Origin: Escherichia coli
GTDB lineage: Bacteria; Pseudomonadota; Gammaproteobacteria; Enterobacterales; Enterobacteriaceae
DNA: 64,000 bases
Assembly (NCBI RefSeq): GCF_003334305.1
Contig: NZ_QOWS01000014.1
Strand: one strand, 5' to 3'
The position numbers and the translations under genes were made by a program. The notes under the pieces were generated by a model. It was not told the DNA's origin and ran no database searches. It saw only the letters and a program-made list of their open reading frames with translations. How positions within the stretch are numbered: the first letter of the stretch is position 1; each line of letters begins with the position of its first letter. Below, piece by piece: positions 8,988 through 11,396 of the stretch.

Positions 8988-9037
8988 TGTGCCTGATGTA
9001 TCCTGCATGAGCAAAACGTACTTTCTCATTGAGCTTT

Positions 9038-9064
9038 GGGGCATGGTTATCATGCCCCTTTTTC
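9038..9064 (+). terminator. Intrinsic terminator of lnt, abutting the stop of the convergent 625-aa ORF
   Basis: GGGGCATG-gttat-CATGCCCC followed by TTTTTC; the minus-strand stop codon is at 9065-9067. Confidence 0.75.
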
Positions 9065-10942
9065 TTACGGTTCAGGGATACAAGCCACATTGCCATATTG
9101 GGGATGACGAATAATTGCCTGCGGATCAAGCGAGCGCGTCCTGTCCATTTGGATCAACCCGTTCTTCGCCATGACAAATATTTTTCTACCATCCGCTGAA
9201 AAACGAAGGTGATTAACGTAGCTGGCAGGATAAACGCCAATAATCTGCCCGGCATTAATATTGAGCAGGATGACATAACCTTGCAGGCCATATGACACCA
9301 ACGCTAAATATTGACCGTCCGGGCTAATACCCTCAACGGAATAAACGCTCCTGCTACACCATTGCGTCATAATGCTGGCTTGTTGATCCCCTACGCTTAT
9401 ACGTGAAATCCCCTGACTATCGGCAAAAATAACCTCGCCGTTTTCAGGTCGAAAACGCATCGCCGATATCGTTCCACGCGCATCACCTGCGGGAAAGTCT
9501 TCTTTCTGATGCGTGATGGTATTGATCCGCACGATGTTACCTCTGCCTGCTCCCGGAACCAGTAATGTTCTTTCATCCGGGGAAAGTGCCATAACCCAGG
9601 CGCCTGGTTTACCGCTCGTCCCCGTCCCGTCGTATTTCTCCAGCGGGATATCCGCCACATGCTGATAAGTCACCAGATCAATCGCTGACACACTATTACT
9701 GGTGCGATTCATCACCCAGGCTTTTGTGCCATCACGCGAGAGGATAAAACTGTCAGGATGTGCACCGGTGGTAATCGACTGAATAATCTCCCCTGTCGCC
9801 ACGTTAATGACCGATAACGCATTCGCTTCAAATGACGTCGCATAAATCAACTTTTCATCCGGGCTTAATGCCAGCGATCTGACGCCCTGATCTTTACAGC
9901 CACCACAATGTTTGACTGACTTTTCTTTCGCTATGGGCGCTGTAAAGGTATGCAGGATTTTCTTTTGTCCGAGGTCGAAAACAACAATGCTGTTGGTGTT
10001 TTCAATTGCGGCATACAACGTATTACCATCCCGACTGATCGCCATATCATGGATATCGGCAATCTCAGCGAGTAAATCACCACTGGCCTGTTCACGACTT
10101 ACCGGAGCGGATAATGTTTCCCTGAGGGCGTTGCGTTCCTCCGCTAACTGTTGTTTTTTTTGTCGTCGCTCTTGTTCAATCTCCTGCGGATAAAACGCTT
10201 CACGCAGGCTTTGCCTGACCTGTAAAACTGACTCATCCATCTGCTGCTGCGCAAGCCAGATAGCCCCGGTCAGAAGAAGACTGCCCGCAACAATAATCCC
10301 GCCTTCCGTAACGAGTCGGTTTTGCCCAGATAAACGCGCGCTCAGCCAACCCAACGCGCCACCCGCAATCAGGCCGCCAATGTGGCAAGCGTTATCTATT
10401 CCTGTTTGCCGGGCACCGTACAACAGTGTCAGCGCCACCATACCCAACAGAGTAAATACTCGCCGCTGGTTTTTATGGTATGTGCCCGTACCTGAAGCAA
10501 ACTGTGTTGCTATCGCTGCACCAGCTATTCCCAGAATCGCCCCGGATGCCCCAACGCTGATGACTATCTGCTCACTTTCGCGTAACGCATAACAGGCGCT
10601 GATGAGCCCACCAAAGACGCCGGAGAATAACCAGGTAATCAGGAGTCGCCATTTCCCCAGAATCTGTTCCGCCACGCCTCCCACGACCAGGAATGCAAAC
10701 ATATTCATCAGCAGATGAGAAACACTACTGTGCAGAAAGATACTGCTCAATAAGCGCCAGGGTTCACCCGACAAAGTAAGAGGCGCAACGTTTGCACCGA
10801 GATGGATAAGTGCGGATTGATCGACCTCTTCATAACTCATCCATTGTGCGAGATAACAAAATATCCCAATACAGAGTGCAAAAAGGATAAGGGTTATTGC
10901 GGGTAATTGAACATTTAACGGCTTAACCGAAGATGCAGACAT
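9065..10942 (-). CDS. Rhomboid-family intramembrane serine protease core fused to an extra TM helix, charged linker and seven-repeat beta-propeller (625 aa)
   Basis: ATG at 10942 with GGAAG about 9 nt upstream. N-terminal part has rhomboid motifs: WRLLSSIFLHSSVSHLLMNM, GASGAILG (Ser133), ACHIGGLIAGG (His187), then a seventh hydrophobic helix. C-terminal part has seven S-x-D-G-type repeats about 42-58 aa apart. Confidence 0.8.
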   Translation of the reverse strand: MSASSVKPLNVQLPAITLILFALCIGIFCYLAQWMSYEEVDQSALIHLGANVAPLTLSGEPWRLLSSIFLHSSVSHLLMNMFAFLVVGGVAEQILGKWRLLITWLFSGVFGGLISACYALRESEQIVISVGASGAILGIAGAAIATQFASGTGTYHKNQRRVFTLLGMVALTLLYGARQTGIDNACHIGGLIAGGALGWLSARLSGQNRLVTEGGIIVAGSLLLTGAIWLAQQQMDESVLQVRQSLREAFYPQEIEQERRQKKQQLAEERNALRETLSAPVSREQASGDLLAEIADIHDMAISRDGNTLYAAIENTNSIVVFDLGQKKILHTFTAPIAKEKSVKHCGGCKDQGVRSLALSPDEKLIYATSFEANALSVINVATGEIIQSITTGAHPDSFILSRDGTKAWVMNRTSNSVSAIDLVTYQHVADIPLEKYDGTGTSGKPGAWVMALSPDERTLLVPGAGRGNIVRINTITHQKEDFPAGDARGTISAMRFRPENGEVIFADSQGISRISVGDQQASIMTQWCSRSVYSVEGISPDGQYLALVSYGLQGYVILLNINAGQIIGVYPASYVNHLRFSADGRKIFVMAKNGLIQMDRTRSLDPQAIIRHPQYGNVACIPEP

Positions 10943-11099
10943 AAGGTGTTTCTTCCTTGAAAAGACAGGTAAAAAGCATTTTTCCCGTGTGCAGTTATCA
11001 TCCCGGCAAACGTCCCATGCCGAAAAGATAACTCTGTCCGAAATATGACTTTTTCAGCCTGAAATTACAATCGTAATTAATTCACCCATAAGTATTTTT

Positions 11100-11115
11100 T
11101 GGCATGTAAGTTGCT
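11100..11115 (+). promoter_or_regulatory. Candidate sigma54 (-24/-12) promoter oriented toward gltI
   Basis: TGGCATGTAAGTTGCT has GG at 11101-11102 and GC at 11113-11114 with correct spacing, close to the TGGCACG-N4-TTGCW consensus. Confidence 0.5.
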
Positions 11116-11396
11116 TTATTTACTGTGTAAGCAATGAAATCAGCCGCGACGCAACCGGGTTGCACCACCACAAATCAGCGGTAGCACCAAAAGAGTGCAT
11201 TTTAAGAATTTTGCTTCGGAATGGTGCGGTGCACCTCGCAAAAACAAACAATAAAACATCAATATCTTTACATTTAGCCAAACTAAATGTTACCTAACAA
11301 GCACAACACTGCACAATAAAGTTGCAGACGATAACAACACAAACACTCACAACGGGTATCCATGCGTTCTTAACGCAGAAGATAAAGGAGTTGGAT

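What the first reader, a model, noticed from the sequence alone, without database searches (positions are those of the whole stretch)
8988..11396. About 2.4 kb between lnt and gltI where K-12 has only a short spacer plus IS5
From memory, K-12 has roughly 0.4 kb of native sequence plus one IS5 copy between these genes; here the interval holds the 1.9-kb rhomboid-propeller gene instead. I found no transposase, integrase, tRNA attachment site or obvious inverted terminal repeats at the edges. Codon usage and GC content look enterobacterial. The ORF stop sits immediately beside the lnt terminator hairpin, and its start shares a 454-bp divergent region with gltI. It therefore looks like a strain-variable chromosomal gene, or one lost from K-12, rather than a recent mobile insertion.
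Basis: partly seen in the sequence, partly recalled or inferred. Interest (0 to 1): 0.6.

Follow-up and report, generated by a model that had tools for sequence, protein, structure and literature searches.

The report
Rhom7 rhomboid protease gene, absent from K-12
The extra 2 kb between lnt and gltI is the gene for Rhom7, a second membrane-embedded rhomboid protease already studied in Shigella sonnei; about 60% of E. coli strains carry it and K-12 has lost it, so this is an ordinary, already-known strain-variable chromosomal gene.

Summary
The lnt-gltI interval is 2409 bp and holds one 625-aa ORF (9065-10942, minus strand). K-12 has a 396-bp spacer plus a 1199-bp IS5 insertion.

The ORF encodes a rhomboid serine protease core (Ser133/His187), a seventh transmembrane helix, a helical linker and a 7-bladed YVTN beta-propeller. 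It is the ortholog of Shigella sonnei Rhom7 (SSON_0610), shown by Liu et al. (EMBO J 2020) to be an active rhomboid that cleaves orphan HybA and FdnH.

Among 5426 complete E. coli genomes, 3231 carry the gene and 2186 carry one shared empty allele. In that allele about 2.1 kb is replaced by about 100 bp (a hairpin plus a REP-like element). K-12's IS5 is a separate, later insertion about 100 bp upstream of gltI.

There are no mobile-element signatures. GC and codon use are native, and dS matches the flanking genes. Orthologs at 49-56% identity sit at the same lnt/gltI position in Klebsiella and one further enterobacterium.

Novelty is low: the gene is already known. The propeller fold of its C-terminal domain and the roughly 60/40 polymorphism are minor additions.

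The parts
7449..8987 (+). lnt (apolipoprotein N-acyltransferase), the left flank. Its last two or three codons lie inside the left breakpoint (about 8981). The C-terminal tail reads ...[10 protein letters not shown] here and ...VLMSLRQRRK in K-12.
   Evidence: ORF list; RefSeq annotation of matching records; junction alignment
8982..11097 (.). Segment private to the gene-bearing ('filled') allele, 2116 bp. The empty allele has about 100 bp of unrelated sequence here (a hairpin plus a REP-like element, L002 1586-1685).
   Evidence: blastn and local alignments of the window against K-12, L73, O157:H7 and strain 98198
9038..9063 (+). Intrinsic terminator of lnt: GGGGCATGG-TTA-TCATGCCCC followed by TTTTT. 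It is conserved in other filled alleles and sits 1-7 nt from the rhom7 stop codon.
   Evidence: terminator scan; spacer comparison
9065..10942 (-). rhom7 CDS, 625 aa, ortholog of S. sonnei Rhom7 (SSON_0610 / Q3Z4D6).
   Evidence: the N-terminal sequence and S133/H187 match the paper's Fig EV1 text
10328..10942 (-). Rhomboid core, aa 1-205 (six TM helices). It carries WR62-63, H76xxxN80, GASG with catalytic Ser133 (codon 10544-10546) and catalytic His187 (codon 10382-10384) followed by GG.
   Evidence: Pfam PF01694, E=1.3e-27, aa 59-201; invariant columns in alignment A1; AF2 helices; PDB GlpG hits
10088..10327 (-). Seventh TM helix (aa 209-233) and a charged helical linker (aa 237-276).
   Evidence: AF2 secondary structure; 7 TMDs reported for Rhom7
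9068..10087 (-). C-terminal 7-bladed YVTN-type beta-propeller (aa about 286-600) plus a tail with invariant Cys621. It is inferred to be periplasmic.
   Evidence: TIGR02276, 58.4 bits against a cut-off of 27.85; 28 strands in 7 groups of 4; best PDB matches 1l0q; conserved Cys529 and Cys621
10943..11396 (.). 454-bp divergent rhom7/gltI control region. 10943-11097 is filled-allele-specific and presumably holds the rhom7 promoter. 11098-11151 has decayed homology. 11152-11396 is shared with K-12 at 97% (gltI promoter region).
11294..11297 (+). CTAA, the site at which K-12 carries its IS5 insertion (the insert is 1199 bp longer than the empty allele). It is intact here.
11397..12305 (+). gltI (glutamate/aspartate ABC transporter binding protein), the right flank.

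Best explanation
The interval holds rhom7, a native Enterobacteriaceae chromosomal gene that is polymorphic for presence or absence in E. coli.

The protein. It is an inner-membrane rhomboid serine protease with a Ser133-His187 dyad in TM4 and TM6. A seventh TM helix places a helical linker and a 7-bladed YVTN beta-propeller in the periplasm. In Shigella sonnei the 99%-identical protein was shown experimentally to be active. It cleaves the TM segment of orphan (unassembled) HybA and FdnH, which are Tat-exported 4Fe-4S subunits of hydrogenase-2 and formate dehydrogenase-N, and so licenses their further degradation. This is membrane-protein quality control. The propeller is dispensable for cleaving an artificial substrate. 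I infer that it is a periplasmic docking or regulatory module for folded ectodomains.

The locus. The gene-bearing allele is ancestral. A single old event replaced about 2.1 kb (gene plus its promoter) with about 100 bp (a hairpin plus a REP-like element), producing the empty allele now found in about 40% of E. coli, including K-12 and O157:H7. K-12 later acquired IS5 at a CTAA about 100 bp upstream of gltI.

Shown here: sequence identity to Rhom7, protein architecture, allele frequencies, junctions, synteny. Shown in the literature: enzymatic activity and substrates. Inferred: periplasmic location and role of the propeller, and the direction of the event (loss).
For: Identity with Rhom7:
- 99% identity to S. 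sonnei proteins.
- The N-terminal sequence in the paper's Fig EV1 text equals this ORF, apart from machine-reading dropouts in that text.
- The catalytic residues Ser133 and His187 are at the same positions.

Rhomboid core:
- PF01694, E=1.3e-27.
- WR, HxxxN, GxSG and HxGG are invariant across 20 homologs.
- GlpG structures match.

Propeller:
- TIGR02276 scores above its cut-off.
- The AF2 model (mean pLDDT 81.5) has 7 x 4 strands.
- The best PDB match is the YVTN propeller 1l0q.

Published function: activity, substrates and dispensability of the CTD.

Polymorphism:
- 3231 filled and 2186 empty genomes account for 5417 of 5426.
- All empties share the same private sequence and the same 396-bp spacer.
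- The empty allele itself falls into >=99%, 95-99% and 90-95% identity classes, so it is old.

Native and old at the locus:
- No tRNA, repeats or mobility genes.
- GC and codon z-scores lie within 1.3 sd.
- dS 0.09-0.17, similar to the flanks; dN/dS 0.17-0.30.
- Syntenic orthologs in Klebsiella and an Enterobacter-like genome.

IS5 is independent of the event: strains L73, O157:H7 and 98198 are empty without IS5.
Against: - Cleavage of native substrates by Rhom7 required plasmid expression; endogenous levels were too low to detect. The physiological importance is therefore unproven.
- I found no promoter match or FNR-like box for rhom7.
- The direction of the event rests on synteny in other genera. 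I could not examine E. albertii, E. marmotae or Salmonella loci.
- Rhom7 is only 50-56% identical between genera whose flanking proteins are 82-95% identical. It evolves fast, or its history is more complex than simple vertical descent.
- Frameshifted alleles exist, which points to weak selection in some lineages.
Confidence: 0.85

Rival explanations
1. Recent horizontal insertion: the 2.1-kb segment is a small genomic islet or mobile-element cargo that entered this strain's lineage between lnt and gltI.
For: The gene is absent from about 40% of E. coli, including K-12 and O157:H7. Its codon adaptation is in the lower part of the window's range, rank 6 of 44.
Against: There is no integrase, transposase, tRNA, or flanking direct or inverted repeats. 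GC is 0.497 against a window mean of 0.509. dS among E. coli alleles equals that of lnt and gltI. The same gene sits in the same slot in Klebsiella spp. at only about 50% identity. The empty allele carries its own private 100 bp, so it is not a simple unoccupied target site.
Confidence: 0.03
2. The empty allele is ancestral in Escherichia, and the filled allele was introduced long ago by homologous recombination of an lnt-rhom7-gltI block from another enterobacterium, then spread within E. coli.
For: The 3' end of lnt is unusually diverged between filled and empty haplotypes (about 92% against about 98% for the rest of lnt). Similarity also decays gradually at the right junction. Rhom7 is far more diverged between genera than its neighbours.
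Against: The nearest non-Escherichia orthologs are only 49-56% identical, so no plausible recent donor is known. Proteins named E. fergusonii and a cryptic Escherichia sp. fall in the same clusters of at least 90% identity. The dS of rhom7 is no larger than that of its flanks.
Confidence: 0.1
3. The gene is a decaying relic with no function in this strain, kept only by chance.
For: Frameshifted alleles occur in several lineages. Endogenous Rhom7 activity in S. sonnei was below detection. Loss is tolerated in about 40% of strains.
Against: The ORF is intact here, and the identical protein is recorded under several NCBI accessions on 8 contigs. dN/dS is 0.17-0.30 in both the TM part and the propeller. 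All catalytic motifs are invariant. The S. sonnei protein is catalytically active.
Confidence: 0.05

Closest known systems
Rhom7 of Shigella sonnei (SSON_0610, UniProt Q3Z4D6; Liu et al., EMBO J 2020, PMC7232013)
   Same: S. sonnei proteins are about 99% identical. The N-terminal sequence is the same, as are the catalytic residues Ser133 and His187, the seven predicted TM helices and the presence of a C-terminal domain. It is the same gene.
   Different: Nothing of substance differs; this copy is in an E. coli strain. The paper calls the C-terminal part only a 'C-terminal domain' and never uses the word 'propeller'. It also does not describe how the gene is distributed in E. coli.
GlpG, the canonical E. 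coli rhomboid (PDB 2IC8 and others)
   Same: It has the same six-TM rhomboid core and the same WR, HxxxN, GxSG and H motifs. In S. sonnei both enzymes cleave orphan HybA.
   Different: Rhom7 scores 43 bits against the GlpG equivalog cut-off of 250. GlpG has an N-terminal cytoplasmic domain, six TM helices and no extracytoplasmic domain. Rhom7 has no N-terminal domain, a seventh TM helix and a periplasmic propeller. GlpG is described as present in all E. coli strains, whereas rhom7 is found in about 60%.
GluP/YqgP-type 6+1-TM rhomboids with a C-terminal TPR domain (Bacillus subtilis YqgP and many Bacteroidota homologs)
   Same: The layout is the same: rhomboid core, seventh TM helix and an extracytoplasmic repeat domain. 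The rhomboid cores are 35-44% identical. YqgP also acts in membrane-protein quality control.
   Different: The extracytoplasmic module is TPR in these proteins and a YVTN beta-propeller here. YqgP has an additional N-terminal cytosolic domain.
YVTN beta-propellers (Methanosarcina S-layer protein 1L0Q; E. coli YncE 3VGZ)
   Same: The repeat type is the same (TIGR02276) and the fold is a 7-bladed propeller.
   Different: Those are soluble or surface proteins not fused to a protease. Identity is only about 15-19%.

Membership tests
Rhomboid intramembrane serine proteases (MEROPS S54, Pfam PF01694) | Significant match to the rhomboid domain profile | tested here: met
   PF01694, E=1.3e-27, aa 59-201, model positions 2-140 of 143
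Rhomboid intramembrane serine proteases (MEROPS S54, Pfam PF01694) | Catalytic Ser in a GxSG motif (TM4) and catalytic His (TM6) followed by a GxxxG-like packing motif | tested here: met
   G131-A-S133-G134 and H187-I-G-G...G194 are invariant in 20 homologs. They lie in helices 132-149 and 184-204 of the model.
Rhomboid intramembrane serine proteases (MEROPS S54, Pfam PF01694) | WR motif in loop L1 and HxxxN in TM2 | tested here: met
   W62, R63, H76 and N80 are invariant
Rhomboid intramembrane serine proteases (MEROPS S54, Pfam PF01694) | Proteolytic activity within the membrane | not testable with these tools
   Shown for the 99%-identical S. sonnei protein, with S133A and H187A controls
Rhom7 orthologous group (S. 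sonnei SSON_0610) | Near-identical sequence with Ser133 and His187 at the same positions | tested here: met
   99% identity to S. sonnei entries. The Fig EV1 text of the paper matches aa 1-113 apart from machine-reading dropouts. The residue positions match.
Rhom7 orthologous group (S. sonnei SSON_0610) | Seven TM helices plus a C-terminal domain | tested here: met
   The AF2 model has 7 long helices before residue 233, then a linker and the propeller
GlpG (NCBIfam TIGR04239 / NF008155 equivalogs) | Score above the curated equivalog cut-off | tested here: not met
   43.2 bits against a cut-off of 250, and 38.8 against 335
Rhombosortase (TIGR03902) | Score above the curated cut-off | tested here: not met
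   44 bits against a cut-off of 84
YVTN beta-propeller repeat proteins (TIGR02276) | Repeat profile above cut-off and a closed propeller fold | tested here: met
   58.4 bits against 27.85. The model has 28 strands in 7 blades. The top PDB hit is 1l0q by both sequence and fold.
Genomic island / mobile insertion | Integrase or transposase gene, tRNA or other attachment site, flanking direct or inverted repeats | tested here: not met
Genomic island / mobile insertion | Atypical base composition or codon usage | tested here: not met
   z-scores of -0.3 (GC), -0.8 (GC3) and -1.2 (local CAI); the GC profile is unremarkable
Genomic island / mobile insertion | Empty site equals the uninterrupted target | tested here: not met
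   The empty allele has about 100 bp of private sequence, and its similarity decays gradually at the right junction

The most novel reading that the evidence does not exclude
The rhom7 presence/absence is an ancient polymorphism that spans phylogroups: both alleles are internally diverged by 5-10%. It could be maintained by selection rather than drift. In that reading, the uncharacterised periplasmic YVTN propeller decides which folded, Tat-exported respiratory subunits are handed to the protease. About 60% of E. coli strains, including ExPEC such as ST131, would then have a second, partly redundant rhomboid that K-12-based and glpG-only studies overlook.
Probability: 0.2. Interest if true: 0.4.

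Novelty: already known. Interest (0 to 1): 0.15.

Why it matters
This matters mainly as housekeeping. It explains a K-12 versus wild-strain difference and attaches a published name and function (Rhom7) to a gene that RefSeq labels only 'rhomboid family intramembrane serine protease'.

There are two modest practical points. First, most non-K-12 E. coli, including ST131-type ExPEC, carry a second rhomboid that shares at least one substrate (HybA) with GlpG. Phenotypes of glpG deletions in such strains may therefore be buffered by rhom7; a 2025 paper on GlpG in pathogenic E. coli did not match any of my search terms for a second rhomboid. Second, the C-terminal domain, whose role the 2020 paper left open, is a 7-bladed YVTN beta-propeller with conserved cysteines. 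That gives a concrete hypothesis for substrate docking or regulation.

Tried and rejected
- Mobile-element signatures at the edges (repeats, tRNA, mobility genes): none found.
- Rfam scan of 8500-12700 at a permissive E-value: only sroC downstream of gltI, and nothing in the interval.
- Sigma-70 promoter scan of the 454-bp divergent region: no hit there. The only match in the scanned region lies inside the CDS.
- FNR-box search (TTGATNNNNATCAA, up to 2 mismatches), motivated by the anaerobic substrates: no site in 10943-11396.
- Residual rhom7 sequence in the empty allele (blastn, word size 7): none found.
- Possibility that IS5 caused the deletion in K-12: rejected, because identical empty alleles lack IS5 and the IS5 site lies at least 140 bp to the right of the breakpoint.
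- My first global alignment, with lenient gap costs, gave a meaningless scatter. I replaced it with local alignments.
- The species-representative genome scan was meant to reveal the state in other Escherichia species.
- Distant homologs at 28-33% identity (Budvicia, Cedecea, L093) are not at the lnt/gltI locus. They say nothing about the ancestry of this locus.
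Full report
OBSERVATION

lnt occupies 7449-8987 (+), and gltI starts at the ATG at 11397, the same start as in RefSeq annotation. The interval 8988-11396 is therefore 2409 bp. It holds one long ORF, 9065-10942 on the minus strand, of 625 aa. The ORF's stop codon lies 7 nt from a hairpin with a T-run at 9038-9063, which terminates lnt. Its ATG is 454 bp from the gltI ATG.

A megablast of 8900-11450 against 5426 complete E. coli genomes found K-12 strains with lnt, a short spacer, IS5 and gltI. 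Other strains (L73, O157:H7, 98198) have only a 396-bp spacer. K-12's interval is 396 + 1199 = 1595 bp.

WHAT THE GENE IS

The N-terminal third is a rhomboid domain by Pfam (PF01694, E=1.3e-27, aa 59-201). NCBIfam places the C-terminal half in the YVTN beta-propeller repeat family: TIGR02276 scores 58.4 bits against a cut-off of 27.85. The protein falls far below the equivalog cut-offs for GlpG and rhombosortase.

An alignment of 20 homologs down to 24% identity keeps the following residues invariant: W62, R63, H76, N80, G131-A-S133-G134 and H187-x-G-G. These are the full rhomboid catalytic signature. Cys621 is also invariant and Cys529 is nearly so.

An AlphaFold2 model (mean pLDDT 81.5) shows four elements in order: seven long helices up to residue 233, a charged helical linker (237-276), 28 strands arranged as seven four-stranded blades (289-600), and a short tail. 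Its best PDB matches are the archaeal YVTN propeller 1L0Q, by both fold and sequence, and GlpG-type rhomboids for the core.

IT IS ALREADY KNOWN

Liu et al. (EMBO J 2020, PMC7232013) described a second rhomboid in Shigella sonnei, SSON_0610, and named it Rhom7. It has seven predicted TM domains, a C-terminal domain and catalytic residues Ser133 and His187.

In this ORF the GASG serine is residue 133 and the CHIGG histidine is residue 187. The machine-read Fig EV1 of the paper gives the Rhom7 N-terminus as MSASSVKPLNVQLPAITLILFALCIGIFCYLAQWMSYEEVDQSALIH..., which is this ORF. S. sonnei database entries are 99% identical. A 2025 review lists Rhom7 as UniProt Q3Z4D6, with HybA, HybO and FdnH as substrates or partners.

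The paper showed three things. Rhom7 cleaves an artificial TatA-TMD substrate, and S133A and H187A abolish this. [quoted passage not shown] Rhom7 also cleaves orphan HybA and FdnH, but plasmid expression was needed because endogenous levels were too low to detect.

The word 'propeller' does not occur in that paper or in the review. A full-text search found no paper describing the Rhom7 C-terminal domain as a propeller. Some database records do carry the name 'YVTN family beta-propeller protein'.

THE POLYMORPHISM

Of the 5426 genomes, 3231 match at least 80% of the query and so carry the gene. A 191-bp probe spanning the private part of the empty allele matches 2186 genomes, once each, and no others. 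The two alleles together account for 5417 of 5426 genomes.

- Filled strains include B2/ST131, O103 and O22:H8. S. sonnei proteins are 99% identical, and proteins named E. fergusonii and a cryptic Escherichia sp. fall in the same 90% clusters.
- Empty strains include K-12, O157:H7 and strain 98198.

Junctions. Similarity between the filled and empty alleles ends at window 8981, inside the last codons of lnt. The two alleles encode different C-terminal tails of equal length. Similarity resumes weakly at 11098 and strongly (97%) at 11152. About 2116 bp here therefore corresponds to about 100 bp in the empty allele. Those 100 bp consist of a hairpin and a REP-like element and have no detectable relation to rhom7.

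The empty allele falls into identity classes of >=99% (1241 genomes), 95-99% (398) and 90-95% (547). Filled alleles differ by up to about 6%. Both alleles are therefore old.

K-12's IS5 is a 1199-bp insert at a CTAA corresponding to window 11294-11297, about 100 bp upstream of gltI. It lies well to the right of the breakpoint, and other empty strains lack it. It is unrelated to the loss of rhom7.

NATIVE OR IMPORTED?

Several lines of evidence indicate a native gene:
- There is no tRNA, no bracketing repeats and no mobility gene.
- GC is 0.497, GC3 0.494 and local codon adaptation 0.638. All lie within 1.3 sd of 43 other genes in the window.
- Between E. coli alleles, dS is 0.09-0.17, the same range as lnt and gltI (0.08-0.21).
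- dN/dS is 0.17-0.30 in both the TM part and the propeller. That indicates purifying selection, though weaker than on the flanks at 0.02-0.13.

The most telling evidence is synteny. Homologs at 49-56% identity lie in exactly the same place, convergent with lnt and divergent from gltI. They occur in Klebsiella aerogenes, in a Klebsiella sp. contig whose Lnt is identical to that of strain RHBSTW-00484, and in a contig whose Lnt clusters with Enterobacter, Citrobacter and Leclercia. The same family is also named in K. oxytoca, K. huaxiensis and K. michiganensis.

Flanking proteins are 82-95% identical between these genera, against 50-56% for Rhom7. The gene therefore evolves fast but stays at its locus. 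More distant homologs at 28-33% identity (Budvicia, Cedecea and an unnamed contig) lie elsewhere.

The most economical reading is an ancestral gene with patchy loss, including one loss event that gave rise to the E. coli empty allele. An old replacement by homologous recombination cannot be excluded.

MECHANISM

Shown by sequence and model:
- a complete rhomboid active site;
- a 6+1 TM topology;
- a 7-bladed YVTN propeller after TM7.

Shown in the literature for the 99%-identical protein:
- intramembrane cleavage that depends on Ser133 and His187;
- selectivity for orphan HybA and FdnH;
- dispensability of the C-terminal domain for an artificial substrate.

Inferred:
- The propeller is periplasmic. 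The rhomboid N-terminus is cytoplasmic and an odd seventh helix flips the C-terminus outward, and the conserved cysteines fit an oxidising compartment.
- The propeller serves to dock or sense the folded periplasmic domains of substrates, or to regulate access to the active site.

I found no recognisable sigma-70 promoter and no FNR box upstream of rhom7. Low native expression is consistent with the below-average codon adaptation. Frameshifted alleles occur in some lineages.

COMPARISON AND VERDICT

The gene is a member of the rhomboid family; every sequence-level defining feature I tested is met. It is the ortholog of Rhom7. It is not GlpG and not a rhombosortase. Its layout parallels the GluP/YqgP-type 6+1-TM rhomboids, with a YVTN propeller in place of their C-terminal TPR domain. 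It fails every test for a genomic island.

The thing itself is already known. The small additions here are:
- the fold assignment of the C-terminal domain;
- the 60/40 allele frequencies;
- the replacement-type junctions;
- conservation of the locus in Klebsiella.

Interest is low (0.15).

Noticed in passing
window 12301-12463 (+): The sRNA SroC (Rfam RF00369, 174.8 bits, full length) lies in the gltI-gltJ spacer, as expected for this operon.
   Followed up: no
window 15600-24300: The hscC-djlC-ybeU-djlB-ybeR-ybeQ block between rihA and ybeL/leuS is also strain-variable. Only 3688 of 5426 complete E. coli genomes cover at least 80% of it, and strain 98198 goes straight from rihA to ybeL. It contains two tandem pairs of similar-sized ORFs (483+235 aa and 475+235 aa) that have no NCBIfam hit.
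   Followed up: partly
window 8960-8987; L002 1560-1588: The last roughly 8 residues of Lnt differ between haplotypes (...[10 protein letters not shown] here...VLMSLRQRRK in K-12). The last 120 bp of lnt are about 92% identical between filled and empty alleles, against about 98% for the rest of the gene.
   Followed up: partly
window 8988-9064; L007 1427-1552; L005 1423-1554: The lnt-rhom7 spacer is 77 bp here but 126-132 bp in ST131, JA0257 and O158:H23. Those strains carry different REP-like or hairpin inserts upstream of the conserved terminator, so this is a small hot spot for REP turnover.
   Followed up: no
L006 1715-3590; L094 3447-5323: Frameshifted rhom7 alleles occur. One is annotated as a pseudogene in strain JA0257. 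Another is split into a 199-aa rhomboid ORF and a 440-aa propeller ORF; the cluster of its propeller fragment has 640 member sequences.
   Followed up: partly
L005 3887-4795: In E. coli O158:H23 strain CFIAFB20140388, gltI is annotated as a pseudogene with an internal stop, while the neighbouring rhom7 is intact.
   Followed up: no
whole window: Matches to the FNR-type palindrome TTGATNNNNATCAA with up to 2 mismatches number 53, against 37 +/- 6 in shuffles; none of the 100 shuffles reached 53. None of the matches lies in the rhom7/gltI control region.
   Followed up: no
L093 (Logan SRR31913104 contig), 6001-7992: A homolog with the same rhomboid-propeller architecture at 32% identity sits in a different neighbourhood. 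It lies next to a DUF6384 protein and two ORFs with no solid domain hit, near queG and yjeF. The fusion protein therefore also exists outside the lnt/gltI locus in other Enterobacterales.
   Followed up: no
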